64,000 nt of DNA from a virus (taxonomy: Duplodnaviria > Heunggongvirae > Uroviricota > Caudoviricetes). The stretch lies in the IMG/VR virus record IMGVR_UViG_3300014204_013127. One strand, 5' to 3'. A model generated the notes under the pieces. The model was given only the letters and a program-made list of their open reading frames with translations, made no database searches and was not told where the DNA came from. Position 1 is the stretch's first letter; each line of letters opens with the position of its first letter. Made by a program: the position numbers and the translations under genes. Shown here one piece after another: positions 14,116 through 38,700 of this stretch.

Positions 14116-15453
14116 ATGAATGACATAGTTGGTTTCGAGCATTTGCATCGCCATTCTCATTATTCTTTGTTGGATGGATACGGCACAGTTGAAGAGTATG
14201 CGATTTATTCCAAAGAAATAAATCAACAATATCTTTGCATTACCGATCACGGCATGATGAGTGCTGTTCCTAACCAAATCGCTTGCTGCGATAAACACGG
14301 TTTGCAGCCAATTTTTGGCGTAGAAATCTATTATCAACCAAAACAGCCCTGTGTGCAAAAGGGCGAGACTATGCAGCAGTATCTTAAAGAGATGCCACCA
14401 GAAGCCCGCAAGGCGATGCAGAAGTCATATCACATGACCTTGTGGGCCAAAAACGAGACAGGATATAAAAATCTTGTTCGTTTAACTTCTTTTGGATGGC
14501 TACACGGCTTCTACTATAAGCCTCGCATTAATTGGGATCAATTAGTGCAGCATAAAGAGGGGTTGATGGTTGGCAGCGGTTGTTTTAATAGTCCAGTGGG
14601 ACAAGCATTTAAAAACTTCGGTCCCGAAATGGCTATAGAGACCATCAAGAAATATCACAACTTGTTTGGTGAAAATTATTATTTGGAAATCATGTTGTTG
14701 GATTTTGTTAAACAAAAGCCCTACAACCAATTCATTGTTCAAGCACATGCAAAATTAGGCATTCCGTTAGTGCTCACACAAGACTGTCATTATTGCAAAA
14801 AAGAAGACAGCAAAATGCAACGGTTAATGCTTATGACTGGCTCTAAGAGAACGGTAGCCGATATGGAGCAAGCCGTTGCCGAAGGTAAAGCTGAAGAATA
14901 TTTTGAGTTGCAAGACACTAATCTCTGGATGAAATCCGAAGAGGAGATCAATGAGAAATGGGCATCTGACCCTTATCTCGATAAGGATTTGTTTAATGCT
15001 GCCAAGGCAAATACTGTGCGTATATGCGAACAATGCAAGGGAGTGCAACTGGATCGCTCGGTAAAATTGCCAAAAATTCCCAATGATGATGAAGTGTTGA
15101 AAAAACTTATCCAAGAGGGTGCGACTAAAAGAGGCATACCAAAGACTAGAGAATACTTGTCCAGAATGCAGGAAGAATACACCTTGGTGAAAGAGAAGGA
15201 GTTTTCTTCGTATTTTATTATTCAAAAAATGATGGTTGACGCTGCCCGTCAGAAATGCATCGAGTTATACGGCGGCACGGGAAGCACGGCAAGAGGGCCG
15301 GGCAGAGGCTCTGGTGCCGGGTTTATGATAAATTATCTTTTGGGAATAACTGATGTTGACCCGGTGAAGTATGATCTGTTATCATCAAGGTTCCTGAGCC
15401 CTGCTCGTGGTGGCAAGCAAATGAAAATCAGGTTTGATGACAAGCCATTATGA
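14116..15453 (+). CDS. dnaE: DNA polymerase III alpha subunit, N-terminal fragment (PHP domain to the thumb/palm boundary)
   Basis: The PHP motif [15 protein letters not shown] is present. The fragment ends ...[40 protein letters not shown], which parallels E. coli DnaE ~340-400 ([38 protein letters not shown]), followed by a stop codon. Confidence 0.8.
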   Translation: [445 protein letters not shown]

Positions 15454-15469
15454 TAAAGAGCGTGTTTGA

Positions 15470-15805
15470 GTGAAAAAAAAGCAACCTAAACCACCTGCCG
15501 AACCTTTTAAGTATAGCCCTAAGGTCACGCTACATCCAGGGGATGTATTTCGTTGCTCTGGTGGTCCATATTATGTTACTCAAACTGGGGAAAAGCTGGC
15601 GATGGGGCAGCGGGGCTTGTTTTCTTATGTCAATATAGCACAAGATGGTATCTTGGCTGTGCCATATAAGCCAAGACCATCAGCGGTGCTAACAGGATCA
15701 GCCATAGTTTTTATTTATATGGGGGAAGAAAAAGTATCGGAAACAACGGGTACTAATTTTTGTCCGCATAAGATTAGGAAAGTTCGCAAAAAGGCATCAA
15801 AATGA
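15470..15805 (+). CDS. hypothetical protein (GTG start)
   Basis: 111-aa ORF. It begins a run of nine small + strand ORFs (15470-18478) with overlapping stop/start codons. Confidence 0.3.
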   Translation: MKKKQPKPPAEPFKYSPKVTLHPGDVFRCSGGPYYVTQTGEKLAMGQRGLFSYVNIAQDGILAVPYKPRPSAVLTGSAIVFIYMGEEKVSETTGTNFCPHKIRKVRKKASK

Positions 15806-16689
15806 ACGAAGAAAAGCCAGCCAAAGGTGTGCGTGGATTTTTGTTGTATAGCCCTTTTGTGAAGAAATATTTTTTTAGGATTTATAACGAAGATAAAACA
15901 TTCGAAGATTACGACTTATGTGCAGCAGACATAGAAGTTGAAATTATTGATAATTCAATTGCTTTGTATTCTGGAAGTCGTAATAAAGTCGATTATACTA
16001 GTAAAGTTTTAGGCATAAAGGATAAAAATGACAAGCAGATATGAGTACGAGACTTCTCTTCCAAATTATGAACATCCAGTAGAGGAGAGAATAATGAATG
16101 TGTATGAAATTGACGATGGAGAACAATGGTGGTTCGCTGCCGAATCTAAAGATGAGGCTTTGCGATTATATTTAGAACCATTGGTTCCAGAAGGCACTGA
16201 CTTAAGTGATTTATCTAAAGTGTTGGTAGATCATTTACTTGATTGTCCTGTGGACGAAATAGAAGTCAACGAAGTTCCTCTTGAAACAGAATTGTCTGTG
16301 ACACAAGATGATGGGGTTACAGTAATTAAAAAGACTGCCTTTGAGTGGGCGGCAGACGGTGCAGGTCTAATAGCAGCAACAGTTTGGTGATTTATGAAGT
16401 TTCCAAAAAGAATCTCTTACACAACTGTCCCAGAGACAAAAAGCAACACTCCGATAGAAATATTGGATGAATATCTCCATAAAATCCTATTGTTAAATGT
16501 GTCACAAAAAAGTAAAATAGTGGCAAGTAGAGCTATACATGAACTGGGCGGATATAAACCATCCAAACAATTGTTTAGTAATGCCAGTAAAATAATTTGG
16601 GATTATGAAAATTCTGGTGAAATAGCTGATAATGTTCCATGCGAGTTATGGGACTTAATTTACAACATAATGAACGAAAGGAATAAAAA

Positions 16690-17193
16690 ATGACAACAAC
16701 TTACAAAGACGCTCCAGAAGTTAAAAAAATTGCTGATGAGTTGATTCCCAAATATCATCAACACATTGTGGATTTCAATGTGCGGGTGGATTATTTATTC
16801 ATAGATAAGGTTCCTATGAAGGGCGATTCGGAAGTTTGGGGCACATGTCGAAAAATAACCAATCTCAATGCCTACTTGGCTGCTGACAAACAAAGTGGTG
16901 GTGATCCATTCTTTGTTATTACAATTTCTGAGCCAATTTGGGATGTTCTTCCAGAAGATAAGCGTATTGCTTTGGTTGACCACGAATTGTGTCATACGGC
17001 GGCAGAATATCAAGAAAAGGATGATGAAGAGCCGGTGCTCAAATTATCTTGTAAGCCGCACGATATGGAAGAGTTTGCTTGTATCGTCAAACGACATGGC
17101 ATGTGGAGAGACAGCATTCAAGATTTTGTAGACAATGCAAGGAAAGACAAAGAAGATACCACCGAGGAAATTGAAGAAGAAGATTTAGAATGA
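16690..17193 (+). CDS. hypothetical HExxH-motif protein with acidic tail
   Basis: A VDHELCHTAAE zinc-metallopeptidase-like motif in a 167-aa protein. Confidence 0.3.
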   Translation: MTTTYKDAPEVKKIADELIPKYHQHIVDFNVRVDYLFIDKVPMKGDSEVWGTCRKITNLNAYLAADKQSGGDPFFVITISEPIWDVLPEDKRIALVDHELCHTAAEYQEKDDEEPVLKLSCKPHDMEEFACIVKRHGMWRDSIQDFVDNARKDKEDTTEEIEEEDLE

Positions 17194-17729
17194 TAGTTTA
17201 TGAGCATAGAGAATGGTTAATACAGGTGCCCGATGGATTGCAGGAATTAGATGTTGTTGGTAAGTTAAAACAACTCGGCTGGGAATGGTGTGATGCCTAC
17301 GATAGCGATAATCATCATCCATTTCGATATGGTCATTATCATACGTTCGACCATAGTGTAGTCGAAGCTACCGAGAAAGAATTTGGCAATAAAACAACCA
17401 CAGATATAGTAGGGTGGATAAGAGATGAAGTGTTCGATTGAATTAGAGCCTGATGATATTGTTGATATCCATGACATGATTGCGGATTGTTTGAGCATTG
17501 ATCTTACAGAGAGTGAAATCCGTGGTTTGATGGATGGTGAGTGGGATATATTGATGGATATGGCAAAATATGGTGCAGACGATACTCCTACCAGAGAGAA
17601 ATTGATGGCAGATATAGGACGGCGATTGACTTGTAAGCCATATCCATCGCATTGTTCGCAAGAAATTAAAGACGCTTACCATAAAGAAGTATTGGTAAAA
17701 GCCAAAGAATGGGGCTATAAGGTAATTGA

Positions 17730-18314
17730 ATGAGATACAGAATAGAAAGCCGACTACAGGATGAAGGATGGAAATACGATGGACAGGAATTTGATTATTT
17801 AAATCAAGCTGTCCAGTTTTGCAAAAATGAGGATGGCTTCTTTTGGGGTATGATGCGGGTTATTGATATGGTAGAAAAGACAGTTGTGGTGGAGTTTCCC
17901 GCTGTTAGTGCCAAAGAGAAGCAGGCAATGCAAATTACTACTAACATGCCAAAAAATGAACAGAAGTTAGATTACACCAAGAAAGGTGACAGCATGGTGC
18001 GAAAAGAATTTGTTTTTGCAATGCTCGGTGCTCCAATTGTTTCATTGGAAATTACAGACGAGCAATACACAGAGATTGCCAATAGAATTAAAAGGGTGAT
18101 GGATGTGTATAAATCGAAAATGCCAGAGGAGATGTTATCAATTCTGGAAGAGGAAGGCGTATTAGCACACGTCAAGTATGCCATTGGTAGAATCAGGGCA
18201 AAATATACTGTTATGCCCGGCCAAGATAACCATTTAGCTCTGGACGGCAGAGATTTAGCTGCCGAGGGACTTGAAAGCATCAGATGGTGGTACGAAATGT
18301 TGGAGAGCTACTAA
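17730..18314 (+). CDS. hypothetical protein
   Basis: 194-aa ORF with no recognisable motif. Confidence 0.35.
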   Translation: MRYRIESRLQDEGWKYDGQEFDYLNQAVQFCKNEDGFFWGMMRVIDMVEKTVVVEFPAVSAKEKQAMQITTNMPKNEQKLDYTKKGDSMVRKEFVFAMLGAPIVSLEITDEQYTEIANRIKRVMDVYKSKMPEEMLSILEEEGVLAHVKYAIGRIRAKYTVMPGQDNHLALDGRDLAAEGLESIRWWYEMLESY

Positions 18315-18474
18315 TGGACAAGGCGATGGATGAGGCATTCTTCAAAAAGCTCAAAGAGACAGTGTTTACATGCGAGCCCACAAGGGATTTTCCAGGGGAT
18401 TACGCAAGTTTCAGAAATTTGGGCTATGATGATGATACAATCGAATGGTTGTATCATCATCTAGATAAGGATGA

Positions 18475-18933
18475 TTAGAAGGATGTGAATTTACGCACAG
18501 TAGCAGGTTTTTTACGGTGGTAGATTCCTTCTATGTGTTTTCTGGCTAATGTCCTCAGTAGATGTTTTTCTTCTGGGGTGGCGACACCTTTTTCTAATTT
18601 GTTTCTTAGCCTGTAATATTCTGCCCCAAGGTATTGTTTAGCATTTTGTAGCTCTTCTTTATCAGGGTCTACTATGTGCATTCCACGGGGAAGTCGAGAA
18701 TCTTTTCCCAAGGCTCTTCCTTGAGTGGTTCCCAAATCACTTACTGGTGTTCGAACTCCAGTTAATGCGTGCCCTCTTCGCATTCGTCGCTCTTCATCCT
18801 CCCAGTCCTCATCGTCGCCCCAATCTTCCCAGGGATCGTCGTCTTCATCTGTGTCTTTAGGAACGGGAGTGTTTGGGCCTATGATATCCCACTTTTCATG
18901 AAGTTTCAGCCATTCATTGAATGATGTGTTCAT
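18475..18933 (-). CDS. hypothetical protein with acidic DDEDDDPWEDWGDDEDWEDEE stretch
   Basis: 152-aa minus-strand ORF, co-oriented with the next gene. Confidence 0.4.
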   Translation of the reverse strand: MNTSFNEWLKLHEKWDIIGPNTPVPKDTDEDDDPWEDWGDDEDWEDEERRMRRGHALTGVRTPVSDLGTTQGRALGKDSRLPRGMHIVDPDKEELQNAKQYLGAEYYRLRNKLEKGVATPEEKHLLRTLARKHIEGIYHRKKPATVRKFTSF

Positions 18934-20160
18934 TTAATCTCTTTTCATATATTGATTTAATGCATGAATAAGATGGTCCATTGCAAACTTTCCTCGATGC
19001 ATTCCCATATGTTTGCCCATCATGCCCATTATGTGTTTCCCCATTCCAGGCATTTCGCCGCCTAATTCATCTTCACCACCTAGTTCATCGCCTAACTCAT
19101 CTTCGTCACCTAGCTCATCCTCATCGCCTAATTCATCTTCGTCACCTAGTTCATCCTCATCGCCTAATTCATCTTCGTCACCTAGTTCATCCTCATCTTC
19201 AAAATCATCATCATCCTCTGGATAATCTTCGTCATCGTCTTCAAAATCTTCTGGTTCGCCATCATCACCAATGCGACGGGTGACTTCTTCATCGTCTCCT
19301 ATATTGTCTATTCCAATAGGAGGACCAACGATTTCATTCATGGCTCGTACTAATGCATTGCAACGCATAGAGCCTTTTTGTTCTTCTCCCAAAAGATTAG
19401 TAAGGGATCGATAAGACTCAGGATATTCCATCAACATTTCCATCAGGCTGCCGATTAATTTTTTTTGTCTCAACGCCACAACCAAATCTCGCAAAATGTT
19501 TTCATTGTTGGCTACTGAAGCAATGTATTTAATAGCTTGTGGCACTTCTGCTTGATGAACGCCCTCAACAGATCGCTCTTCTTTAATCATGTATTGGGTG
19601 AATTCGCTCAGGGGCATGCCTTTTGTTTTCTTTAAGAAGGTCTCTGTTTTTGTAGTGTAATCCCCAACACTTTTTCCGCCCGGTATATGTGGTGAATCGC
19701 CTGCCTTGAGTTTAATTTCTTCTCGGGGAATACTCCCTAAGTTACCCAGTCCTTCATCACTATTTTTGGGCTTAGCATCTGTGCCTTGCTTATAGGCAGC
19801 GGGTTTGCTGGCTTTGGGAGCCTTAGTATCCCAATTTTTTCCCTTGGTCTTGGCTTCGGGAGGAGCAACGGGTGGCTTGAAGGGATAGTCAGCAATAATT
19901 TCCGTGGCTGGTTTTTCTACCACAGAGCTTGCCTGCTTTTTTTCCAAAAACTTAGCCCATAATCCTTCTTTGACCTGAGGTTGCTCATCGGCTACTTTTT
20001 TTATATTTTTGTGTGTCTTGGCTTCTTTGGGTGGCTTATTGGGTTCGCCGCAAAGATCATCGGCTCCAGTTAGCTTGTCGCCTGTTTTGATAATTTTGGG
20101 TTTGCGAACCAACTCTGGGTCTTTTCTTTCGAGAAACTTGTTGAATTTGGGATATTTCAT
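18934..20160 (-). CDS. hypothetical protein with C-terminal (DEDELG)n acidic tandem repeat and His/Met/Gly-rich tail
   Basis: 408 aa. The basic Lys/Pro-rich N-terminal half and the strongly acidic repeat are encoded by an 18/36-bp tandem DNA repeat. Confidence 0.5.
   Translation of the reverse strand: MKYPKFNKFLERKDPELVRKPKIIKTGDKLTGADDLCGEPNKPPKEAKTHKNIKKVADEQPQVKEGLWAKFLEKKQASSVVEKPATEIIADYPFKPPVAPPEAKTKGKNWDTKAPKASKPAAYKQGTDAKPKNSDEGLGNLGSIPREEIKLKAGDSPHIPGGKSVGDYTTKTETFLKKTKGMPLSEFTQYMIKEERSVEGVHQAEVPQAIKYIASVANNENILRDLVVALRQKKLIGSLMEMLMEYPESYRSLTNLLGEEQKGSMRCNALVRAMNEIVGPPIGIDNIGDDEEVTRRIGDDGEPEDFEDDDEDYPEDDDDFEDEDELGDEDELGDEDELGDEDELGDEDELGDEDELGDELGGEDELGGEMPGMGKHIMGMMGKHMGMHRGKFAMDHLIHALNQYMKRD
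19055..19200 (-). repeat. coding tandem repeat (18-bp units alternating in a 36-bp period, about 6-8 copies) encoding DEDELG
   Basis: Direct reading of ...cacctagttcatcctcatcgcctaattcatcttcgt... repeated. The + strand Ser-rich ORF 19013-19225 is an artefact of this repeat. Confidence 0.6.
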
Positions 20161-20161
20161 A

Positions 20162-20350
20162 TTATTTTCCTTGTGTATTTAACGCCATTAGAAGCCAAAG
20201 GATGAGGTAAAGGAGTATTCCGCTACCGCCAGCTAAAAAGAATATTATAAATAATATCCTGATAATAAATGGGTCACAGCTAAAATCCTTGGCAAGTCCA
20301 CTGCATACGCCTGCAATCATCGCATTCTCTTTGTCTAATTGAAAGGCCAT
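20162..20350 (-). CDS. PspC-domain small membrane protein
   Basis: MIAGVCSGLAKDFSCDPFIIRILFIIFFLAGGSGILLYLILWLL matches the PspC N-terminal domain consensus (GVCgGlA..f.iDp..vRl) and is followed by a TM helix. Confidence 0.5.
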   Translation of the reverse strand: MAFQLDKENAMIAGVCSGLAKDFSCDPFIIRILFIIFFLAGGSGILLYLILWLLMALNTQGK

Positions 20351-20361
20351 AATTTTACCTC

Positions 20362-20398
20362 TTGTCTGTATTTAGTGTAGAAACTATAATTTTCTACA
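20362..20398 (+). promoter_or_regulatory. sigma70-like promoter (TTGTCT-17-TATAAT) overlapped by an 8-7-8 inverted repeat TGTAGAAA-ctataat-TTTCTACA (operator-like)
   Basis: -35 at 20362-20367 and -10 at 20385-20390. A perfect 8-bp inverted repeat at 20376-20398 straddles the -10. It lies in the divergent region between the PspC-domain gene (-) and the HD-domain gene (+). Confidence 0.4.
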
Positions 20399-20404
20399 AT
20401 AGAT

Positions 20405-21232
20405 ATGTTAATGGAATTCAAAAATTGGTTAGAAATGAGCAGCTTACGGGATATTTTGAAAAATGTGCCACAGTCCGCACAATGGCACCCAGAGGGGTCT
20501 GTGTTTTTACACACAAGGCTTGTTAGAAAAGCTCTGCCTGTAGCTGTGAAAATGTTTGAGAAAGCTAGGGGAGAAGAGGCTTTTTCAAACTTGCCATCGG
20601 TCAGCGATGGGGATATAATGCTTTTGAGGATACTTGCTTGGCTGCATGATGTGGGCAAAGCCTCCACCGCAGGCTACAAATATCCCGATAATACCATCAA
20701 ACCGTTGTCTGATTTTCCTGGGCACACTGTAAAACAGATGATGTCACCTGACTTCGGACCAGGGAAATGGACAGCCCATGCTCACGAAGACCCAGAGCAT
20801 TATGAGCCGCAAATAAAAAAATTAGGCAATAAGTGGCAGTCTATTCTGGACAACCTATCACCAGAAGATAAGGAAATTGTGTGGTTTGTAGTTCCAAAAC
20901 ATATGGAGTTTAGTGAGAAGGGACTTAGTAGACACATTAAGGCATCAATTGGAATTGATGGCAAATTCGCCCCAGATCGCAAGATTAAAATATGGATTGT
21001 TTTCAAATTGATGGACCTAATGGGTCGAGGATCGGGGTTGGATATAGAATCAGGGAAGAGTTTTTTGGAGATTCTTATGAACGTGGCAGAAGAGAAGATG
21101 CGTAAAAGTTTACGTACTAAACCAGTAGAGCCAAACACCCCAGAGGAGTTTGCAAAGTATTTGCTGGCTAAGGGGGTGAAACCCGATGTGGTTCAGGCAG
21201 CAGTTCGAGGGAAATTTGCAGCATATATTTAA
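20405..21232 (+). CDS. HD-domain phosphohydrolase-like protein
   Basis: H...LRILAWLHDVGK resembles the HD metal-binding motif; 275 aa. Confidence 0.4.
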   Translation: MLMEFKNWLEMSSLRDILKNVPQSAQWHPEGSVFLHTRLVRKALPVAVKMFEKARGEEAFSNLPSVSDGDIMLLRILAWLHDVGKASTAGYKYPDNTIKPLSDFPGHTVKQMMSPDFGPGKWTAHAHEDPEHYEPQIKKLGNKWQSILDNLSPEDKEIVWFVVPKHMEFSEKGLSRHIKASIGIDGKFAPDRKIKIWIVFKLMDLMGRGSGLDIESGKSFLEILMNVAEEKMRKSLRTKPVEPNTPEEFAKYLLAKGVKPDVVQAAVRGKFAAYI

Positions 21233-21241
21233 GGAGGCTAC

Positions 21242-21445
21242 ATGTTCTGGGTTTATGTTTTAATCGGATTTTTTTTGGCCCTTGTGGGTGGTGTTGGAAT
21301 GTTGTTTGCCCTGATTATGGGAGCCAAACCAGACCCGAGTATTTGGAAAATGATTGCAGTTTTTCTACTTCCTGCTTTGGGGTATTGGATGGGATTGATT
21401 GGTGCATTTCTCTACGGCTTGGGGGAAGCCTTTAAGGGTGGCTAG
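21242..21445 (+). CDS. small two-TM membrane protein
   Basis: 67 aa, highly hydrophobic and Gly-rich. Confidence 0.3.
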   Translation: MFWVYVLIGFFLALVGGVGMLFALIMGAKPDPSIWKMIAVFLLPALGYWMGLIGAFLYGLGEAFKGG

Positions 21446-21789
21446 ATTTCTCTAAACTGTTCTTTTGCACCCTCTATAAAATGTACCAAGTATCGACCAT
21501 TTGTGCAGAATCTTTTTCCTAATATGGAAATTTCTTTTGCATGAATTCTTCTATGACACTTGCAGCAGCAAGTGATGGTGTTAGATTCTGTGTATTTTCC
21601 ACCATCGCTGCCGGGGAGGATGCGGTGGACATCTAATGTAGAATAATCAGTTTCCCCACAGAAACAGCATTTTTTATCCAGGTGTTTTTTACTCTTTTTA
21701 TTCATGATGTTCGTATAGCAATATAGGAGTAAATAACATGTGGTTTGATAAACAATCTGGTTGTGCTCGAATGACTGTTCAAGAAGCAT
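21442..21789 (-). mobile_element. free-standing HNH homing-endonuclease-like gene
   Basis: CCFCGETDY...VHRILPGSDGGKYTESNTITCCCKCHRRIH carries the HNH zinc-finger and catalytic His/Asn pattern; 115 aa. Confidence 0.6.
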
Positions 21790-22121: not shown

Positions 22122-22271
22122 TGGGGTTTACAAACTAAGTTTCTGAAGTATAATGGCGTTACCTGACCGAAGCGAAAGCTTAGCGTACAGGCCCCATTCA
22201 TGCGTTTGAAAGACAGTGAGGGAGTTTTCGGCTTCTTCGTAAACTGTGTGTGGATGGCAAAAAGCCGAAAC

Positions 22272-22618: not shown

Positions 22619-22721
22619 ATATTCAATTTGTGTCATTGATGGCACAATATGCGAAAAACGGATGGTCTGGCGAAGATGTGTTTAAGTTTTGCCAAGCTGT
22701 TGTAGAACACAGGAAATAAAA

Positions 22722-23222: not shown

Positions 23223-23224
23223 CC

Positions 23225-23653: not shown

Positions 23654-23670
23654 CGGCGTCTCCTTTCGAG

Positions 23671-23701: not shown

Positions 23702-23704
23702 ATC

Positions 23705-23733: not shown

Positions 23734-23758
23734 CTTTGGAATCAATGGAGGGTAATAT

Positions 23759-29617: not shown

Positions 29618-29620
29618 AGT

Positions 29621-30433: not shown

Positions 30434-30434
30434 T

Positions 30435-31229: not shown

Positions 31230-31239
31230 TGGTGTAATT

Positions 31240-32307: not shown

Positions 32308-32968
32308 TTATTTGGAAGTTTTTACAGTATGTGTGAATTATGGTGATTTCTTAAACATTTGCATAAGTGCAAATAAAAAGCACTTTGACAGATGGGTTGT
32401 TGTCACAAGCTCAGAAGATGAAAACACAAAAAACATATGCAAGAAAAGTGGTGTTGAGTGTGTGGAGTCTCGAAGATTTTATAATAATGGAGATAAATTT
32501 AATAAAGGAAAAGCACTAAACGATGTTATAAATCATTTGTTTAAGAAAGATTGGGTTCTTGCCTTAGATGCTGATATTATTCTTCCTGCTGATTTTAGGG
32601 AAATGATTGGTGCTAAAAAACTGAATAATGATTTTTTATATGGAGTTCCAAGGAAAAGTTTGGATACATGCCAATGTTGGACTGATGTGACTCCTGTAAT
32701 TTCGCCCTGGGGTTATTTTCAATTGTTTAATGGACATTCTGATGTTATGCAAAGGGCCAAGGTCTATCCAGAATCTTATCCCCATGCTGGAAATTATGAT
32801 TTGGAATTTGTGTCTTATTGGAACGGAAGACATAGAATGTTGGAAGATGTAGTAGTCGAACATATGCCACATGGGATTGTTGCAACAAATTGGTGTGGCA
32901 GAAGATCAAAAATATTATCCAAAAACGATGTTAGCACTTTCAGCAAATCGGTAATTAAATTCGCCTAA
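32300..32968 (+). CDS. DXD-motif glycosyltransferase-like protein (paralog A of a tandem duplicate)
   Basis: LEVFTVCVNYGDFL...KKHFDRWVVVTS...LALDADIILPADFRE. About 55-60% identical by eye to the next gene over its full length. Confidence 0.4.
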   Translation: MINYLEVFTVCVNYGDFLNICISANKKHFDRWVVVTSSEDENTKNICKKSGVECVESRRFYNNGDKFNKGKALNDVINHLFKKDWVLALDADIILPADFREMIGAKKLNNDFLYGVPRKSLDTCQCWTDVTPVISPWGYFQLFNGHSDVMQRAKVYPESYPHAGNYDLEFVSYWNGRHRMLEDVVVEHMPHGIVATNWCGRRSKILSKNDVSTFSKSVIKFA

Positions 32969-32970
32969 TT

Positions 32971-33618
32971 ATGTATTTAGAAGTTTTTACATCTTGCGTG
33001 GGTTATAGTGATTTTTTGGATGTGTGTTTATATTCAAACAAAAAGCATTTTGACAGATGGGTAATCATTACTTCGACAGAAGATGTGGCAACCAAGAGTG
33101 TGTGTAAAAAGCATCAAATAGAATGTGTTGAATCAAGTCGATTTTATGAAGGCGGTGCAGCATTTAACAAAGGTAAGGGACTAAATGATGCCATAAGTTA
33201 TTTGGATAAAAAAGATTGGATGCTTGCTTTAGACGCAGATATCATTCTTCCAGATAACTTTAGGGAAATAATCGAAGGATTGACTTTAGATAAAGAGTTT
33301 TTATATGGGGCGGTAAGGTATGAAATTGACAATATTTCTGGCAAACAAATGTATATTGATGGTGACAACATGCGTATACTTGGGTTTTTTCAGTTGTTTC
33401 ATGCTACGAGGCTAAAATACTATCCAGAAGATTGGGACACTGCTGGATGGTATGATGATGTGTTTGCAGATTACTGGGATTCTAAAAAAACATTACAAAA
33501 GTTGGTGATACAGCATATTGAGCATGGTGTGAGAACAACCAATTGGGAGGGCAGGAAATCCAAGCCTTTGTCGAAGACGGAAATAGGATCATTAAAGAAG
33601 TTGATTATAAAATTGTGA
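32971..33618 (+). CDS. DXD-motif glycosyltransferase-like protein (paralog B)
   Basis: LEVFTSCVGYSDFL...KKHFDRWVIITS...LALDADIILPDNFRE; tandem duplicate of 32300-32968. Confidence 0.4.
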   Translation: MYLEVFTSCVGYSDFLDVCLYSNKKHFDRWVIITSTEDVATKSVCKKHQIECVESSRFYEGGAAFNKGKGLNDAISYLDKKDWMLALDADIILPDNFREIIEGLTLDKEFLYGAVRYEIDNISGKQMYIDGDNMRILGFFQLFHATRLKYYPEDWDTAGWYDDVFADYWDSKKTLQKLVIQHIEHGVRTTNWEGRKSKPLSKTEIGSLKKLIIKL

Positions 33619-34729
33619 TGCCAGAATATGATTGGTAAGGAATGTTATTGGAATTGCGGTAAAAGCAAATTAGTTTTCTTCCAATTACGAGATATTTGTT
33701 TCTTACAAAATTAGTTCTACCTTCAAACAATGTGTTGATGGCATCTTTGTCATGTTGTGATATATTTCCAATATATAATATATCAATAGTTTCTTGCCCT
33801 GTTTGAACAAACTGAAGGTTTAAATAGCAAGAATCTAATTTTTCTATAAAACTTGGTTCGTATATTATTTTATTGTTTATTTTTATTGCATTGTTGACAT
33901 GCGGTATAAATTTGAAGTTTAAATATGACTTTCCACAATTACACACTCTGACTTGCGGATTGATTTCAAATAAATCATCAGATTCAATTTGATTATTTGC
34001 AAGATTGATTAAGCTTGTGTTTCCAGAAAAAGTTGGAAAAAAATGCAATGTGCGAAATGGGCAGGTGTAAAAGTTAGATGTGATTGACCAATCAACCATG
34101 TTGTTATTAAGGTGGATCGAGGATGGTATTTTGCTGGATTTGAAAAAAGGCTCCCAATCTAAAGTACGGATAGCAAGTATTTTGTCTTGTTTTAAGAACT
34201 CTAAGAAACTTTTTTGTTCTAATAGAAAAAGTAGTGTATTAGAGACGGTGCTGATAGTGATTGGCTCTTTTACGCTATGAAGGAAATTTATCAAAAAAGA
34301 TAGGGCATTGTTTTGGTCCCAATAAAAAATGCCAGCATAATCCATAAGAGAATTATCTTTAACACGCATAATAGCATTTTTTTTATCTCCGCAAGGAAAC
34401 ATTGATTGAATGTATATTGTTTTCCCTATGCTTGGCTTGATTGCAGACTCCATGCTATTGATCCAAAAATCGAAAAACGGACCAAATTTATATTCCCGAG
34501 GTATATTTGTGGAGCCATTTGTCCTTAGAGAAATTGAACTAAAATTTTTACAATCCTCACGGGCAGCTTTTACATCTGAAGCAAAATCGACATAATCGCA
34601 AAAGTTATAGGACTGAATTTCTTGCCATAAAAGTTTGGCACTTTCAAGGGTTGGGTTTTTGTAATATTGATTATAACATTGCAAAAGATTCATTAGGTTA
34701 TTGAAATTGTATATACGGGGCAAGCACAA
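33605..34729 (-). CDS. hypothetical protein (Asn/Ser-rich, TTG start per the ORF track)
   Basis: 374 aa, minus strand, downstream of rSAM-2 and the small peptide. No recognisable motif. Confidence 0.35.
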   Translation of the reverse strand: MCLPRIYNFNNLMNLLQCYNQYYKNPTLESAKLLWQEIQSYNFCDYVDFASDVKAAREDCKNFSSISLRTNGSTNIPREYKFGPFFDFWINSMESAIKPSIGKTIYIQSMFPCGDKKNAIMRVKDNSLMDYAGIFYWDQNNALSFLINFLHSVKEPITISTVSNTLLFLLEQKSFLEFLKQDKILAIRTLDWEPFFKSSKIPSSIHLNNNMVDWSITSNFYTCPFRTLHFFPTFSGNTSLINLANNQIESDDLFEINPQVRVCNCGKSYLNFKFIPHVNNAIKINNKIIYEPSFIEKLDSCYLNLQFVQTGQETIDILYIGNISQHDKDAINTLFEGRTNFVRNKYLVIGRKLICFYRNSNNIPYQSYSGITIL

Positions 34730-34863
34730 ACATAGCCAGCAGTAGAATTTGAATTGGTGCCCGCATTAATTTCCATACACAAGCACTCGTCCAGCAATTG
34801 TTGTAGTTTTTCTGCATCTGGACACTCAAAAGTGATTTTTTCTGCATCTGTTAGTGTTGTCAT
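34696..34863 (-). CDS. small Cys-containing peptide (56 aa) immediately downstream of rSAM-2; candidate precursor peptide
   Basis: Hand translation of the minus strand gives MTTLTDAEKITFECPDAEKLQQLLDECLCMEINAGTNSNSTAGYVCACPVYTISIT. The ATG (34861-34863) lies 12 nt after the rSAM-2 stop and is preceded by AAGGA. It is not in the ORF track because it is under 60 aa. Confidence 0.4.
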
Positions 34864-34875
34864 CATTTTTTTTCC

Positions 34876-36018
34876 TTAGCATAGTTTGTTGTCATTGGCC
34901 ATTTTTTGTATTTGGTGTTGAAGAGCTACTGGATCGCAAAAATTGCTTTTTCCCCCAACAAAATCCAACATCGCACAGCTTCCCCAGCAATACCCTGCTG
35001 CTTGACACTTCATGCATTTTGTGTCATTTAGCAAGGGCATGGTTTTTAAAATTAGGTCATTTCTTCTCTCTATGATTGTACTCAAACTATCTGATAAATT
35101 TCCTATCTTTGTATATGTATAATAATCGCTAAATATATTTTCTGTATAGTCGGTTAATAATACTTCATGTCTGTATTTACAACACCATGTAGGCGTGAAT
35201 ATAGGTTTTAACAATATATCAGCAAAAGATTTGGTGGTTTTCCTGCACTCGGAATGTGGTCCGATAAGCCCTATGTTTATTTGTTCAGGTTTAAATCCAA
35301 ACTGAAGAGCAAAGAGATAATATTCTTTTCGTAGTTCTGGTGTATTGGATGCATCGCCAAAAGAAGCTTTCAAATTGATTTTGTGCCTCAGTCCTTTGGT
35401 TATTAATATTTTCAAATTATTGGTTGTTTTTTCAAATGGACTCCAATTACCTGTGAGTGGTATTCTTTGTGCATCGTTCAACAAATCATTACCACCATCT
35501 AAACTAATGCTTAGTTGGCTTAATTTTTCAATTAAAGATAATCTTCTTTCATTTAGATCAATCGTTAGATTAGAGACCATGCCTATGTGTAAAATGTTTG
35601 CATGAGATTTGATCTTGTCTATAACTTCATGGCATTTTTCTTCTTCCAGTAGGTTTTCTCCACCATAAAAAAATATGCAGATATCTTTGACATTAGATCG
35701 TATTATAAAATCACAAATTTTATCAACATTTAATGGTTTTTGTTGCTTTGCTTCTAAAAGATGCGAGAAGTTGCAGTGTGTGCATCGTAAGTTACATTCC
35801 AATGTTGGTGCTATGTTAAAGTTTAGAAACTTTGGGGGGTCATGAATTATCAACAATTTCAACAAGGACTCTCTTTCTTGTCCCGATAAAAACAAATTGG
35901 ACTCCAACTCGTCAAAGGTCGCAGAAATGGGCAGTTGTTGCCTTGTGAGGGTGTTAAAATAGACTTTTTCCCCACTCTCATTGACAGTTTGGCAGACATA
36001 AAAAGATAGGTTTTTCAT
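34876..36018 (-). CDS. radical SAM/SPASM enzyme (rSAM-2) with ~80-aa N-terminal extension
   Basis: The CNLRCTHCNF CxxxCxxC motif is present. C-terminal CMKCQAAGYCWGSCAM...FCDP fits a SPASM Cys cluster. Confidence 0.7.
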   Translation of the reverse strand: MKNLSFYVCQTVNESGEKVYFNTLTRQQLPISATFDELESNLFLSGQERESLLKLLIIHDPPKFLNFNIAPTLECNLRCTHCNFSHLLEAKQQKPLNVDKICDFIIRSNVKDICIFFYGGENLLEEEKCHEVIDKIKSHANILHIGMVSNLTIDLNERRLSLIEKLSQLSISLDGGNDLLNDAQRIPLTGNWSPFEKTTNNLKILITKGLRHKINLKASFGDASNTPELRKEYYLFALQFGFKPEQINIGLIGPHSECRKTTKSFADILLKPIFTPTWCCKYRHEVLLTDYTENIFSDYYTYTKIGNLSDSLSTIIERRNDLILKTMPLLNDTKCMKCQAAGYCWGSCAMLDFVGGKSNFCDPVALQHQIQKMANDNKLC

Positions 36019-36040
36019 AATTTAAATTAGTGATTATCTG

Positions 36041-36069
36041 TTGATTTGATGCAAGCAAACTGATATAGT
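36041..36069 (+). promoter_or_regulatory. sigma70-like promoter TTGATT-17-TATAGT for the dnaE C-fragment (very short leader)
   Basis: -35 at 36041-36046 and -10 at 36064-36069. The ATG at 36082 is only ~6 nt past the predicted start site and has no SD. Confidence 0.35.
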
Positions 36070-36081
36070 GATAGTAGAATT

Positions 36082-38700
36082 ATGAGAGATTATAAAAAAG
36101 AGCTACAGTTGTTGTGCCAGCAAAAAATAGAGAGCTTAGGACTATGTTCAAACGCTCAATATGCAGATCGTCTGAAATTGGAGTTTAGACATATCGACTG
36201 GCAAGATGAGCACTATTATTTAGTGGATTTGTACGAAAGAAAATGTAAGTTTGCCAAAAATGAAAACAATATGTTGGTGGTCCATCTTTTAGGACTAGCC
36301 GATGAATTTGATATCAGCCAACCGCCAAAGTTTACGTTTATTGCCGAGTTCCCCGACATAGATTCAGATTTCTTGCCTGAAATTCAACAGTGGTTAAAAA
36401 ATGTCTGGGCTCCCCAAACCTTTGGGGCGGAATATGTTTGTAATATTGGTAATTATGCCACTTATGGCATCAAATCTGCTTTACAGGATATGGCCAGAGT
36501 TTATGGCTTGAGTCATGATGAAGTCAACACGGTTACCACCCAGATTGAAGATAAAGATGATGAAAATAAACCCATTACGTGGGAAAAAGCTTTGGAGCTA
36601 AACAAGGAATTGGCTGCTTATTGCGAGCAATATCCAGAGGTATATGATGCTGCCAAGCGATTGTATGGCAGGGTAAGGGGAATGGGCAAACATGCTGGTG
36701 GTTTGATTATTTCTAGCATGCCCTTGGCTGATTTTGTTCCATTGGTTGTGGACAAGCAAGGCAATCCGCTTTCAGCATGGACTGAAGGACTGCATGCTCA
36801 AGACTTGGCCCCTGTAGGATTGGTGAAAGTCGATGTATTGGTTATTACAAACTTAGTGCAAATAGCTAAGTGCTTGAAATTGATTCGTGAGCGATACGGT
36901 ATCGACAGGATGTGTAATTTAGAGGCACAGGATGATTGGTCGGACACAGAGAAGTACCAAAATGATCCTGATGCTATTGCTTTGGCAAACGAAGCAAAAT
37001 TAAAGTGCATTTTCCAATTTGATTCTCCCGGCATTAGGGATTTGGCAAAAAAGGGTGGTGTGACTTCATTTGATGATCTAGTGGCATTCACTAGTTTATA
37101 TCGTCCTGGTCCTATGGGCTCTCAACTCCACACCACCTATTGTAAGCGAAAAAAGGGCGAGCCATACGAGTTGCATCCATTGTTAAAGCCTATTTTGGAA
37201 AAAACATATGGGGTGATGTGTTACCAAGAACAGATCATGAAAATCTTCAATGTTATTGGGGGTTTTCCATTGCCTCAATGTTATAAAATTGTGAAGGCTA
37301 TTTCCAAGAAAAAAGGCGAGGTTTTCCAAAAAGCCAAAGTTCAATTTTTGGAACAATGCCAACAAAGATTGGATTATTCTGAGCAAGAAGCTAATGAATT
37401 TTTTGAGAGTATAGCAAAGTTTTCGGGATATGCTTTCAATTTAAGTCATGCTACTTCATATTCGTTTGTTTCTGCAATGCTGTTGTATTTGAAAGCTCAT
37501 TATCCTTTAGAGTTCTTTGCAGCTATTTTGAGTTGTGAAAAAAATGCTGACAAGATTAAAGAATACAGATTAGAAGCCCAAAGATTTGGGGTGCCGATCA
37601 ATCGTATTGATATCAATAAGTCGAAGGTTCATTTTGAAATTATAGACAATGAAATATATTTAGGGTTTGCGGACATTAAGGGTGTTGGTGATGAGGTTGC
37701 TGAAAAAATCGTGGCAGGACAGCCCTATAGTTCTTTTGTAGATTTTATGGAACGATTTGGCACTTATGCTGATGTTTTGAAGCCACTGATTGCTTTACGG
37801 GTTTTTTCTGATGAACCGATGGTTTTGTATGAATTTGCTGAATTCTATCGTTGCAAAAGCAAATCACGCAAAGATCGAGATAAGAGATATATTACTTCTC
37901 AACAAGATCGTCTAGATGAAATTATATCCTTAGTACAATCAGAATATGAGAAAATAATAGATGGCGATTGGTGTGCTCAGTTTAAAGACCTGAAGAAAAA
38001 GGAATTTATTGAAAAGCATAGTGCTATGTGTTTGGACGGCATGGCCGAAGATGTTTTTACAGCCATCAATCAATATAACAAATCTAAAGCCAACAATGAG
38101 AAAAAGGTAGCACTCGATACCGTTATCACAATGGATAATTGGAATCCATCGGGAAAAATAGATCACGAAATGCAGGTTTTATTATCACATCACTTGTCTA
38201 TTGCCGAAAACAAATATTATGGTTTTCCTTGGGATTATGTGTTGACGCAATCTCCTGATTATAAAGGAAGAACCTTTGAGGAGTTCGATATAGCAATTGC
38301 ACAGGGCGATCATGCCATTAAGCCGGTGGAGGTGCAGATAATAGAGAAGCCTCGAATTATGAAGTCTAAGAAAGGATACAAGGTCAAAGTTGTGGACGGC
38401 AATGGAAGAGCAGAAACTGTTACTATTTGGAAAGATGATTTTGAAAGATTTGAGGAAGAAATTGCTTGGTGGGAGCCGACATGCGAGTGGGGCAATTTAT
38501 TACAAATGAGGCTTAAAAAGCCTATGGGGGATTGGAAAGATTACACATTTGAAAGTTTCCCCAGAGAGCTTAGGAAAGAAATGGTGCCTAAGGAAAAAAG
38601 CCAAGATGGTCGTTTGAATGTTTTGCGTTGGCCGGAAAGTGCCATAGTCAAACAAGATGTAATAGATAAAATCAAGGAAGATTTTACTATTATAGACTAG
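36082..38700 (+). CDS. dnaE: DNA polymerase III alpha subunit, C-terminal fragment (palm catalytic aspartates onward, fingers, OB-like)
   Basis: FPDIDSDF is the PDFDVDF catalytic motif. GKHAGGLIIS matches GxHAxGvvI. YCKRKKGEPYELHPLLKPILEKTYGVMCYQEQIMKI matches the conserved fingers region. 872 aa, including an ~85-aa N-terminal extension with no DnaE counterpart. Confidence 0.8.
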   Translation: MRDYKKELQLLCQQKIESLGLCSNAQYADRLKLEFRHIDWQDEHYYLVDLYERKCKFAKNENNMLVVHLLGLADEFDISQPPKFTFIAEFPDIDSDFLPEIQQWLKNVWAPQTFGAEYVCNIGNYATYGIKSALQDMARVYGLSHDEVNTVTTQIEDKDDENKPITWEKALELNKELAAYCEQYPEVYDAAKRLYGRVRGMGKHAGGLIISSMPLADFVPLVVDKQGNPLSAWTEGLHAQDLAPVGLVKVDVLVITNLVQIAKCLKLIRERYGIDRMCNLEAQDDWSDTEKYQNDPDAIALANEAKLKCIFQFDSPGIRDLAKKGGVTSFDDLVAFTSLYRPGPMGSQLHTTYCKRKKGEPYELHPLLKPILEKTYGVMCYQEQIMKIFNVIGGFPLPQCYKIVKAISKKKGEVFQKAKVQFLEQCQQRLDYSEQEANEFFESIAKFSGYAFNLSHATSYSFVSAMLLYLKAHYPLEFFAAILSCEKNADKIKEYRLEAQRFGVPINRIDINKSKVHFEIIDNEIYLGFADIKGVGDEVAEKIVAGQPYSSFVDFMERFGTYADVLKPLIALRVFSDEPMVLYEFAEFYRCKSKSRKDRDKRYITSQQDRLDEIISLVQSEYEKIIDGDWCAQFKDLKKKEFIEKHSAMCLDGMAEDVFTAINQYNKSKANNEKKVALDTVITMDNWNPSGKIDHEMQVLLSHHLSIAENKYYGFPWDYVLTQSPDYKGRTFEEFDIAIAQGDHAIKPVEVQIIEKPRIMKSKKGYKVKVVDGNGRAETVTIWKDDFERFEEEIAWWEPTCEWGNLLQMRLKKPMGDWKDYTFESFPRELRKEMVPKEKSQDGRLNVLRWPESAIVKQDVIDKIKEDFTIID

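What the first reader, a model, noticed from the sequence alone, without database searches (positions are those of the whole stretch)
14116..38700. Split dnaE: N- and C-terminal halves of Pol III alpha encoded ~20.6 kb apart, broken just before the catalytic PDxD motif, with the accessory island in the gap
ORF 14116-15453 ends at the equivalent of E. coli DnaE ~residue 400 (RFLSPARGG versus RFLNPERVS), then a stop. ORF 36082-38700 resumes exactly at the catalytic FPDIDSDF (PDFDVDF) and carries the rest of the palm, fingers and C-terminal domains. So the polymerase must assemble from two polypeptides. The break point is one residue-block away from the classic DnaE split-intein insertion site used in cyanobacteria. 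The C-fragment has an ~85-aa N-terminal extension (MRDYKK...PPKFTF) with no DnaE counterpart. It weakly echoes intein C-terminal blocks F/G (YYLVDLYERKCKFAKNENNMLVVHL versus vYDLtVe.dHNFvAnGilvHN) but lacks the terminal Asn and the +1 Cys/Ser/Thr. This could be a decayed split intein retained as a non-covalent docking module. The ~20 kb between the halves holds the small-ORF early region, tmRNA and the rSAM/GT island.
Basis: partly seen in the sequence, partly recalled or inferred. Interest (0 to 1): 0.7.

Follow-up and report, generated by a model that had tools for sequence, protein, structure and literature searches.

The report
Two-gene phage DnaE with overlapping halves
This huge phage encodes its Pol III-type DNA polymerase as two separate proteins broken inside the catalytic core. 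The break is old, is shared by hundreds of related phages and involves no intein: the "extra" piece on the second half is a diverged second copy of polymerase sequence.

Summary
ORF 14116-15453 encodes the PHP domain and the first part of the DnaE palm, including GPGRGS. ORF 36082-38700, 20.6 kb downstream on the same strand, resumes at the catalytic PDIDSD and carries the rest of the palm, the fingers and the HhH domain.

The intein-relic reading does not hold. The 88-aa "extension" aligns to the DnaE palm segment that precedes PDxD, with the GS loop deleted and replaced by a conserved NENN. No intein signature is present. Real inteins in relatives sit at six other sites. The classic cyanobacterial site (before Cys-Phe-Asn) lies about 360 residues downstream of the break.

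The split is not an accident. More than 100 clusters of stand-alone N-halves and of C-halves exist on contigs of up to 633 kb. In 46 IMG/VR contigs the halves lie on one strand, N upstream of C, 0.95-15 kb apart, with variable genes between them.

The two halves therefore overlap by a diverged ~75-aa palm segment with complementary motif retention: GS in the N-half, DxD in the C-half. I infer a non-covalent two-subunit polymerase with a composite active site.

The nearest precedent is the split "minimal" Pol III alpha of group 2.2 jumbo phages (Iyer 2021). I rate this a new variant of a known kind.

The parts
14116..15453 (+). dnaE N-half gene (445 aa): PHP domain plus the NTP-binding part of the palm. 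It ends with tandem stops TGA TAA (the second stop runs to 15456).
   Evidence: More than 100 stand-alone homologue clusters of 441-480 aa.
14116..14880 (+). PHP domain with all nine metal-ligand positions intact (H11 H13 D20 H45 E70 H106 C156 D223 H225). It is probably an active 3'-5' exonuclease.
   Evidence: Pfam PF02811 E=4.9e-42. These positions are invariant or nearly invariant in 105 sequences. The ligand consensus H H D H E H C D H comes from PMC3666897.
15094..15414 (+). Palm N-subdomain of the N-half (aa 327-433): helices, GPGRGS, DP and [10 protein letters not shown]. It is the most conserved part of the N-half.
   Evidence: PF07733 positions 2-98. Mean pairwise identity is 66% against 60% for PHP. 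G394 R397 G398 S399 R425 F426 R431 G433 are invariant.
15295..15312 (+). GPGRGS, the G[GS] triphosphate-binding motif of the Pol-beta-like fold. Only the N-half has it.
   Evidence: In relatives an intein sits exactly at GPGRG|S.
15415..15450 (+). Conserved C-terminal tail [12 protein letters not shown] (family consensus K-x-M-K-L-R-F). It is predicted to be disordered in the isolated subunit. It may be a docking strand, and possibly a relic of the PDIDVDF strand with Asp replaced by Lys/Arg.
   Evidence: Conservation. pLDDT is below 50 at aa 429-439. The strand-relic reading is inference only.
15454..36081 (.). 20.6-kb intervening region. It is the local version of a hypervariable gap that separates the two halves in every split relative.
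   Evidence: Gaps of 0.95-15.2 kb in 46 IMG/VR contigs. Gaps of 4.0, 4.4 and 24.5 kb in other contigs. Gene content differs between relatives.
25851..27855 (+). AAA ATPase (25851-26861), a 175-aa ORF, and cpYpsA/SLOG (27382-27855). In relatives this module sits directly upstream of the C-half.
   Evidence: Same module in L003-L007. cpYpsA is fused to the C-half in P0294.
28000..36018 (.). Low-GC island (GC 0.34-0.35 against 0.40-0.44 in the flanks) with two radical-SAM genes, GT2 glycosyltransferases and a methyltransferase. It was probably inserted later between cpYpsA and the C-half.
   Evidence: Absent at this position in L004, L005 and L007.
36041..36069 (+). Promoter-like site TTGATT-17-TG-TATAGT, 13 nt upstream of the C-half ATG. 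The gene upstream is on the opposite strand, so the C-half needs its own promoter.
   Evidence: not above chance on its own. Gene orientation.
36082..38700 (+). dnaE C-half gene (872 aa): head module, catalytic palm, thumb, fingers, HhH and a lineage-specific C-terminal region.
   Evidence: More than 100 stand-alone homologue clusters of ~830-950 aa. AF2 pLDDT 89.3; Foldseek TM 0.70 to Taq Pol III alpha 3e0d.
36082..36345 (+). Head module (aa 1-88): a diverged copy of the DnaE palm N-subdomain helices that lacks the beta1-GS loop. E34, Y46 and N60 are invariant.
   Evidence: Confident helices in the AF2 model. The module is found only at the N-termini of PHP-less proteins among 1.84 billion representatives.
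36259..36270 (+). NENN motif, which replaces [10 protein letters not shown] at the N-cap of the second helix.
36352..36369 (+). PDIDSD catalytic strand (D92, D94; P91 D92 D94 D96 invariant). The third catalytic Asp is D251 (36832-36834).
36853..37797 (+). Fingers (aa 258-428) and HhH (aa 503-572).
   Evidence: PF17657 E=5e-39 and PF14579 E=3e-14.

Best explanation
This is an old gene fission of a full-size DnaE-type replicative polymerase. No intein is involved, and the fission is fixed in a large clade of huge phages.

Subunit 1 (the N-half) carries an apparently active PHP exonuclease and the NTP-binding part of the Pol-beta-like palm: the GPGRGS loop and RFLxPxR. Subunit 2 (the C-half) carries the Mg-binding DxD strand, the third Asp, the thumb, the fingers, the HhH and a lineage-specific C-terminus.

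The two genes overlap in homology. The C-half begins with a second, diverged copy of the palm helices in which the beta1-GS loop is deleted and replaced by NENN. The N-half ends just where the catalytic strand should begin, with a short conserved tail. Each copy has kept what the other has lost.

I infer that the two proteins bind each other without covalent joining, and that the active site is built from both chains: GS and Arg from the N-half, the three Asp from the C-half. The conserved junction segments are disordered in the isolated subunits. Together with the head module, they would form the interface.

The space between the genes is a tolerated insertion hot spot. In this genome it has grown to 20.6 kb.

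Shown: the split, its conservation, the homology of the head, and the absence of an intein, intron or excision signal.
Inferred: physical assembly, the composite active site, and origin by partial duplication with complementary loss.
For: 1. Break position. The Pfam PF07733 profile is divided at position 98/100 between the two ORFs. The halves align to Taq DnaE 5-459 and 460-928.
2. Conservation of each half. The 120 best homologues of each half are all stand-alone halves, at 44-59% identity, on contigs of up to 633 kb.
3. Conserved arrangement. In all 48 IMG/VR contigs that hold both parts, they lie on the same strand with N upstream. Of these, 46 are split, with gaps of 0.95-15.2 kb (median 6.9 kb), and none is adjacent or fused. 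Other contigs show gaps of 4.0, 4.4 and 24.5 kb.
4. The head is DnaE sequence. Evidence comes from BLASTP against a contiguous phage DnaE, hhalign at 96.5%, 95.5% and 86.5%, and tblastn overlap of both halves on the same 84 nt of the contiguous relative LR756511.
5. Both overlapping copies are under purifying selection. E34, Y46 and N60 are invariant and NENN nearly invariant in the head. GxxRGS, RF and RxG are invariant in the N-tail, which is the most conserved part of the N-half. An intein targets GPGRG|S in relatives.
6. AF2 models both subunits confidently (pLDDT 89-91) except at the junction: N-half aa 421-445 and C-half aa 81-100. That is expected of segments that fold on binding.
7. 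The head module occurs only at the N-termini of PHP-less proteins among 1.84 billion representatives.
8. Split and contiguous phage forms together make one clade against bacterial DnaE (100/100). The contiguous sisters are 1176-1194 aa.
Against: - No experiment and no multimer model supports assembly; my attempt at a fused construct failed.
- If both copies of the palm helices took the canonical position they would clash, so the geometry of the complex is unknown.
- The C-half might be catalytically self-sufficient, with NENN standing in for GS.
- The polarity of the fission is not settled. The split clade is monophyletic in 79% of NJ bootstraps for the C part but only 22% for the N part.
- No duplication intermediate, meaning a contiguous gene carrying both copies, was found.
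- The reading of the N-tail as a dead copy of the catalytic strand rests on seven residues.
Confidence: 0.8

Rival explanations
1. Decayed split intein. The 88-aa head of the C-half is a relic of a C-intein, possibly of an atypical split intein with a very short N-piece. It is now kept as a non-covalent docking module.
For: - The break lies in a conserved catalytic motif region, the kind of site inteins favour.
- Inteins are common in this family; one sits only about 35 residues upstream, at GPGRG|S.
- Atypical split inteins with N-pieces of 11-25 aa are known (own knowledge).
Against: - The head aligns residue for residue with the DnaE palm helices.
- Pfam finds no HINT or intein family in the head at E <= 1.
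- There is no terminal Asn followed by Cys/Ser/Thr anywhere before PDID in 117 homologues.
- The N-tail has no Cys/Ser1 and no TxxH block.
- None of the real inteins in relatives is at the break.
- The 'VVHL' similarity is DnaE 'SLVAY'.
Confidence: 0.02
2. Two independent enzymes. The C-half is a self-sufficient PHP-less polymerase in which NENN replaces the GS loop. The N-half is a separate PHP exonuclease or pyrophosphatase whose palm fragment is only a leftover or an anchor.
For: - The genes are 1-25 kb apart and, at least in this window, have separate promoters.
- The C-half has its own copy of the palm helices and folds confidently alone.
- NENN is nearly invariant, which suggests a function of its own.
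Against: - GPGRGS, RF and RxG in the N-half palm fragment are invariant, and the fragment is the best conserved part of that protein. A mere leftover would not be expected to stay so.
- The catalytic strand region of the C-half is poorly modelled alone (pLDDT below 50 at aa 89-91).
- The two genes always co-occur in fixed order and orientation.
- The G[GS] loop is a defining element of Pol-beta-like nucleotidyltransferases (established knowledge).
Confidence: 0.13
3. Joining at the nucleic-acid level. The gap is an excisable element (skin- or nifD-like), a giant intron, or is removed by trans-splicing or ribosomal bypass, so that one contiguous DnaE is made.
For: - Gene fragmentation by group I introns and homing endonucleases is common in some huge phages (PMC12880540).
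- HNH and TnpB genes occur in the gaps of some relatives.
Against: - No Rfam intron family reaches its threshold in the window.
- The gap carries genes on both strands.
- No shared 10-mers or longer flank the gap.
- None of the gap ORFs scanned against Pfam (the larger ones, above about 140 aa) matched a recombinase, and the 970-bp gap of L061 holds only one unannotated 165-aa ORF; the ~20 smaller gap ORFs were not scanned.
- Joining the two ORFs would duplicate the palm segment rather than restore a normal DnaE.
- The N-half ends in a double stop.
Confidence: 0.02
4. Artefact or pseudogene: an assembly error, a frameshift, or a decaying polymerase gene in a defective element.
For: The window comes from a metagenome-assembled contig that is filed under a bacterial MAG name.
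Against: - The identical architecture is found in hundreds of independent assemblies from JGI, ENA, Logan and NCBI.
- Purifying selection acts across both ORFs.
- All catalytic residues are intact.
Confidence: 0.01

Closest known systems
Split 'minimal' DNA polymerase III alpha of group 2.2 jumbo phages (Iyer, Anantharaman, Krishnan, Burroughs, Aravind 2021, Viruses 13:63; PMC7824862)
   Same: It is a phage Pol III alpha homologue encoded as two proteins on distant genes. The division lies between the N-terminal NTP-binding subdomain and the C-terminal Mg2+- and DNA-binding subdomain. The authors propose that the two proteins reconstitute one enzyme.
   Different: That version is described as minimal, lacking PHP and the other Pol III domains, and as accompanying a family B polymerase. 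The one here is a full-size DnaE with an intact PHP, fingers and HhH, and has contiguous sister genes of ~1180 aa. The paper's text does not mention an overlapping duplicated segment. Whether the two splits are homologous or convergent was not tested.
Cyanobacterial split DnaE with the trans-splicing DnaE intein (Ssp/Npu), and the metagenomic 'fractured' dnaE genes with split inteins (Dassa et al. 2009, PMC2677866)
   Same: dnaE is encoded in two separate genes, and the halves must come together to give a working polymerase.
   Different: Those halves carry a HINT-fold split intein (Cys1 ... Asn-Cys+1) and are ligated covalently. The cyanobacterial site precedes Cys-Phe-Asn (PMC3585056), about 360 residues downstream of the break here. 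Here there is no intein and the halves overlap in homology.
Two-cistron family B polymerases without inteins (gp43A/gp43B of T4-related phage Aeh1; split PolB of Methanothermobacter).
   Same: A replicative polymerase is split into two polypeptides that assemble without covalent joining.
   Different: The polymerase family and fold differ. No duplicated overlapping segment is known to me in those cases.
Contiguous DnaE of ~590-620-kb huge phages (e.g. LR756511.1; P0356-P0375)
   Same: This is the closest sequence relative of both halves (50% and 42% identity). It shares lineage-specific features such as the insert before GPGRGS and the non-OB C-terminal region.
   Different: It is a single 1176-1194-aa polypeptide with one copy of the palm segment and no NENN module.

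Membership tests
DnaE-type C-family DNA polymerase (Pol III alpha) | N-terminal PHP domain | tested here: met
   PF02811 E=4.9e-42 in the N-half. All nine metal-ligand positions are conserved.
DnaE-type C-family DNA polymerase (Pol III alpha) | Pol-beta-like palm with a G[GS] loop, a DxD strand and a third Asp | tested here: met
   GPGRGS in the N-half. P91 D92 D94 D96 and D251 in the C-half are invariant. The elements lie on two different polypeptides.
DnaE-type C-family DNA polymerase (Pol III alpha) | Fingers and HhH domains | tested here: met
   PF17657 E=5e-39 and PF14579 E=3e-14. Foldseek TM 0.70 to 3e0d.
DnaE-type C-family DNA polymerase (Pol III alpha) | Single polypeptide chain | tested here: not met
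   Two ORFs 20.6 kb apart, with a double stop after the first. The split is conserved in the clade.
DnaE-type C-family DNA polymerase (Pol III alpha) | C-terminal OB fold (PF01336) and tau/clamp-binding region | tested here: not met
   No PF01336 hit in the C-half, whereas bacterial homologues have one. A clamp-binding motif was not searched for.
Split intein (classic or atypical) | N-intein with a Cys/Ser1 nucleophile and blocks A/B at the end of the N-extein | tested here: not met
   Only 12 residues ([12 protein letters not shown]) follow the DnaE homology. They hold no Cys or Ser and no TxxH.
Split intein (classic or atypical) | C-intein ending in His-Asn (or Ser-Asn) followed by Cys/Ser/Thr at +1 | tested here: not met
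   No such junction lies before PDID in the window or in 117 homologues. Real inteins in relatives do show it.
Split intein (classic or atypical) | HINT-fold profile similarity | tested here: not met
   No intein or Hint Pfam family at E <= 1 for aa 1-88. The head is modelled as helices, not as a beta-rich HINT fold.
Split minimal Pol III alpha of group 2.2 jumbo phages (Iyer 2021) | Division between the NTP-binding and the Mg/DNA-binding subdomains, on distant genes | tested here: met
   GS is in the N-half and DxD in the C-half, 20.6 kb apart.
Split minimal Pol III alpha of group 2.2 jumbo phages (Iyer 2021) | Minimal architecture without PHP or other Pol III domains | tested here: not met
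   PHP, fingers and HhH are all present.
Split minimal Pol III alpha of group 2.2 jumbo phages (Iyer 2021) | Co-occurrence with a family B polymerase; direct sequence relatedness to those proteins | not tested
   Only 64 kb of a ~340-kb genome is in hand. The paper's accession lists were not available.
Excisable intervening element (skin/nifD type) | Flanking direct repeats and an element-encoded recombinase | tested here: not met
   No shared 10-mers or longer. No recombinase among the gap ORFs scanned against Pfam, which were the larger ones only; the 970-bp gap of L061 holds one unannotated 165-aa ORF.

The most novel reading that the evidence does not exclude
The fission arose by partial duplication of the palm N-subdomain followed by complementary loss: GS kept upstream, DxD kept downstream. 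The retained duplicate now works as a pseudo-symmetric docking module.

On this reading the catalytic centre of a replicative polymerase is completed only when the PHP/NTP-binding subunit donates its GS loop into the gap left in the C-subunit. The two genes sit either side of a hypervariable region and have separate promoters. Assembly could therefore serve as a checkpoint that gates phage replication in time or by stoichiometry.
Probability: 0.25. Interest if true: 0.75.

Novelty: new variant of a known kind. Interest (0 to 1): 0.55.

Why it matters
C-family polymerases are treated as single-chain enzymes except where a split intein re-ligates them. Surveys of bacterial DnaE join or discard fragmented sequences (PMC3919608).

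Here a complete DnaE is divided inside the Pol-beta-like catalytic core, between the triphosphate-binding loop and the metal-binding strand. That state has been stable across a very diverse clade of huge phages.

It offers three things:
- a natural experiment on how a polymerase active site can be assembled from two chains;
- a clean example of gene fission with an overlapping duplicated segment and complementary motif retention;
- a practical warning for annotation, because the halves are called 'DNA polymerase III alpha', 'PHP domain protein' or 'hypothetical', and the host contig is filed as a bacterial MAG.

The pair could also be a starting point for split-polymerase tools that need no intein.

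Tried and rejected
1. Fused N+linker+C construct for a pseudo-multimer AF2 run.
   - MAFFT mis-aligned the unpaired halves (identities 15-20%).
   - The paired construct was too costly to paste.
   - The tool returns no coordinates, so contacts could not have been read anyway.
   - I modelled the two subunits separately instead.
2. First NJ script timed out. I re-ran it with a faster distance routine. The rooting of split against contiguous forms stays ambiguous.
3. Literature.
   - Searches for 'split DnaE phage' and similar terms found nothing on this family.
   - Only Iyer 2021 describes a related split. Its supplements are not held.
   - Caspi 2003 and Wu 1998 are not held. The classic intein site was taken from PMC3585056.
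4. I checked whether PB1-like Pseudomonas phages and the Wifcevirus hits are split. They are contiguous, at 1036 and 965 aa.
5. The idea that the N-tail KQMKIRF is a dead copy of PDIDVDF is too short to test statistically. I keep it as speculation.
6. The sigma-70 promoter scan is not above chance.

Full report
**1. The observation**

Pfam places PHP (aa 9-193) and PF07733 'DNA_pol3_alpha' profile positions 2-98 (aa 327-431) in the first ORF. It places PF07733 positions 100-259 (aa 89-253), the fingers (PF17657) and the HhH (PF14579) in the second.

Against solved structures, the first ORF aligns to Taq Pol III alpha 5-459 and E. coli 82-396. The second aligns to Taq 460-928 and E. coli 398-855. 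The coding sequence is therefore broken between '...[10 protein letters not shown]' and 'FPDIDSDF' to within one profile position.

The first ORF ends in tandem stops, TGA TAA. The second starts 63 nt after a divergently oriented gene. The window holds no Rfam intron family, only a tmRNA at 22272-22618. So the split is real.

**2. The 'extension' is DnaE sequence, not intein**

The first hint came from tblastn. The nearest phage record is LR756511.1, a 595-kb uncultured phage with one contiguous 1179-aa DnaE. Both halves match it, and the two matches overlap by 84 nt: N-half aa 404-431 and C-half aa 65-92 hit the same DNA. Many contiguous actinophage DnaEs align to the C-half from residue 8 onward.

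BLASTP of the C-half against the Streptomyces phage Targaryen DnaE aligns aa 12-88 to residues 326-420, the palm helices that precede PDxD. There is one 11-residue gap, exactly over [11 protein letters not shown].

Profile-profile comparison of 117 heads gives:
- 96.5% probability (E 8e-10) against the same segment of the contiguous sister clade;
- 95.5% against bacterial DnaE;
- 86.5% (E 5e-6) against the tails of the N-halves themselves.

Pfam finds no intein or Hint family in aa 1-88 even at E <= 1. After the last DnaE-homologous residue the N-half has only 12 residues, with no Cys or Ser.

Relatives do carry genuine inteins, with Cys/Ser1 and HN/SN followed by Ser/Cys. They sit after N-half aa 68, 223 and 398 (GPGRG|S), and after C-half aa 346, 379 and 454 (FNL|SH). 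None is at the break.

The classic cyanobacterial split-intein site precedes Cys-Phe-Asn (PMC3585056). That corresponds to Y450|AFN of the C-half, about 360 residues downstream of PDxD. It is not 'one block away'.

**3. The split is a clade character**

The 120 best database relatives of the C-half are all PHP-less proteins of ~830-950 aa, longer where inteins are inserted. They are 44-49% identical, cover 95-100% of the query, and lie on contigs of up to 546 kb. The 120 best relatives of the N-half are all 441-480-aa proteins that stop at the same place, on contigs of up to 633 kb.

The exact C-half is on a 340,072-bp contig that NCBI files under a 'Proteobacteria bacterium' MAG.

All heads share the consensus '...RLKxEIKEIDnQaEhDYFLdLyxKkxKFxkNENNLLVpYLLGLxDdFDIxxxPxxxqGEFPDIDVDYL'. 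All N-halves end '...[51 protein letters not shown]'.

In IMG/VR, 48 contigs carry both parts. In all 48 they are on the same strand with N upstream. Two of the 48 are contiguous-type genes. The other 46 are split, with gaps of 0.95-15.2 kb and a median of 6.9 kb.

Other assemblies give gaps of 4.0, 4.4 and 24.5 kb. The window's 20.6 kb is near the top of the range. The shortest gap, 970 bp in L061, holds one opposite-strand ORF, and both overlapping segments are still present there.

Gap content differs from contig to contig. It includes peptidases, TnpB/IS605, HNH, an Eco57I-type enzyme, and gyrB/gyrA. The exception is an AAA-cpYpsA module that usually lies just upstream of the C-half. One protein, P0294, is a cpYpsA-C-half fusion.

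In the window, AAA (25851-26861) and cpYpsA (27382-27855) are followed by an ~8-kb low-GC island (GC 0.34-0.35) of radical-SAM, glycosyltransferase and methyltransferase genes before the C-half. I read that island as a later insertion.

**4. Selection and structure**

Within 97 C-halves, the head (aa 16-88) averages 47% pairwise identity against 57-63% for the rest. It still has invariant E34, Y46 and N60, and a nearly invariant NENN.

Within 105 N-halves, the palm fragment (aa 327-433) is the best conserved region, at 66% against 60% for PHP. G394, R397, G398, S399, R425, F426, R431 and G433 are invariant.

All nine PHP metal-ligand positions are conserved: H11, H13, D20, H45, E70, H106, C156, D223 and H225 (ligand consensus from PMC3666897). 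The N-subunit is therefore probably an active proofreading exonuclease, as in Thermus Pol III.

AF2 models both subunits well: C 1-620 at pLDDT 89.3 and N at 90.7. The head is modelled as confident helices (4-18, 25-41, 44-52, 65-69). Foldseek aligns 613-620 of the 620 columns to DnaE structures, with TM 0.70 to the Taq ternary complex.

Only the junction is poorly modelled. N-half aa 421-445 falls below 50 at 429-439, and C-half aa 81-100 falls below 50 at 89-91. These are highly conserved segments that look disordered in isolation. That is the pattern expected of elements that fold against a partner.

**5. What it most likely is**

I conclude that this is a two-subunit DnaE.
- The N-subunit supplies the PHP exonuclease and the NTP-binding half of the Pol-beta-like core: the G[GS] loop and the Arg of RFLxPxR.
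- The C-subunit supplies the three catalytic Asp (D92, D94, D251), the thumb, the fingers and the HhH.

The genes overlap by a diverged ~75-aa palm segment with complementary retention of motifs. This fits fission by partial duplication and complementary degeneration.

However, no contiguous gene with both copies was found. In 1.84 billion representatives the head module occurs only at the N-termini of PHP-less proteins.

The split and contiguous phage forms together make one clade against bacterial DnaE (100/100 NJ bootstraps). Whether the split clade is nested in a contiguous grade (79% support from the C part) or the reverse (the N part gives 22% support for split monophyly) is unresolved. 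Since all outgroups are contiguous, a single fission is the parsimonious reading.

How the two copies of the helices are arranged in the complex is not known. Whether NENN has a catalytic or a docking role is also not known.

**6. Rivals**

- Intein relic: rejected (section 2).
- Independent enzymes: possible but disfavoured, given the invariant GS, RF and RxG in the N-half fragment and the fixed gene order.
- Joining at the DNA or RNA level: no intron, no flanking repeats, genes on both strands in the gap, and joining would duplicate the palm segment.
- Artefact: excluded by hundreds of independent assemblies.

**7. Comparison with what is known**

Iyer et al. 2021 (PMC7824862) reported a 'minimal' Pol III alpha in group 2.2 jumbo phages. 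It is split into an NTP-binding and a Mg/DNA-binding protein on distant genes, lacks PHP and the other domains, and accompanies a family B polymerase. The boundary is the same in concept. The protein here, however, is a full-size DnaE with contiguous sisters, and no overlap was described for that case.

Cyanobacterial and 'fractured' dnaE genes are rejoined by split inteins at other sites (PMC2677866, PMC3585056). Surveys of bacterial DnaE treat fragments as errors or as intein cases (PMC3919608).

I found no description of this family. I rate it a new variant of a known kind, with interest 0.55.

Noticed in passing
window 22272-22618 (+): Phage-encoded tmRNA (Rfam RF00023, 119.6 bits; ARAGORN tag peptide ANDYVALAA) inside the gap between the dnaE halves.
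   Followed up: partly
window 4915-12570 (+): PrkA (AAA_PrkA + PrkA), DUF444 and SpoVR genes in a row, resembling the bacterial yeaG-yeaH-ycgB stress module. DUF444-SpoVR is conserved directly upstream of the N-half in relatives (L003, L004, L008).
   Followed up: partly
window 28000-36018 and 38946-40277: Low-GC (0.34-0.35) island with radical-SAM genes (28547-29617 on +, 34876-36018 on -), GT2 glycosyltransferases and a methyltransferase. A third radical-SAM gene lies just downstream of the C-half. It looks like a laterally acquired modification cassette that flanks the polymerase gene.
   Followed up: partly
P0294; L004 9498-10004; L005 7717-8190; window 27382-27855: A cpYpsA (SLOG) gene, usually preceded by an AAA ATPase, is a conserved upstream neighbour of the C-half. 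In one relative it is fused in frame to the C-half. This hints at a functional link with the polymerase.
   Followed up: partly
relatives P0173, P0379-P0464, P0012, P0015, P0050 and others (window equivalents: N-half aa 68, 223, 398; C-half aa 346, 379, 454): Six distinct bona fide intein insertion sites in this phage DnaE family, several with homing-endonuclease domains. One is exactly at GPGRG|S. One is three residues from the classic cyanobacterial CFN site.
   Followed up: yes
window 37879-38697 (C-half aa ~600-872): The C-terminal ~270 aa of the C-half has no Pfam match and no OB fold (PF01336), unlike bacterial DnaE. It is nevertheless conserved in the clade and in the contiguous sisters (motifs such as YGFxW and SPDY). 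How the clamp or processivity factor binds is unknown.
   Followed up: no
L061 7500-7700: In the relative with the shortest gap, the 5' end of the N-half is itself interrupted: '...FEHLHLHSD' stops, and the frame resumes about 35 nt later. This could be a frameshift, a small intron or an assembly error.
   Followed up: no
whole window (source contig): The identical C-half protein is on a 340,072-bp contig deposited as 'MAG: Proteobacteria bacterium' (M0R80_01735). Its gene content and relatives point to a huge phage that was mis-binned as bacterial.
   Followed up: partly
window 7894-8610, 50430-52034, 54131-55132: Auxiliary genes unusual for phages: a 238-aa fragment-like Glu/Gln-tRNA synthetase catalytic domain, a TPP-dependent enzyme (534 aa) and a full DnaJ (333 aa).
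   Followed up: no
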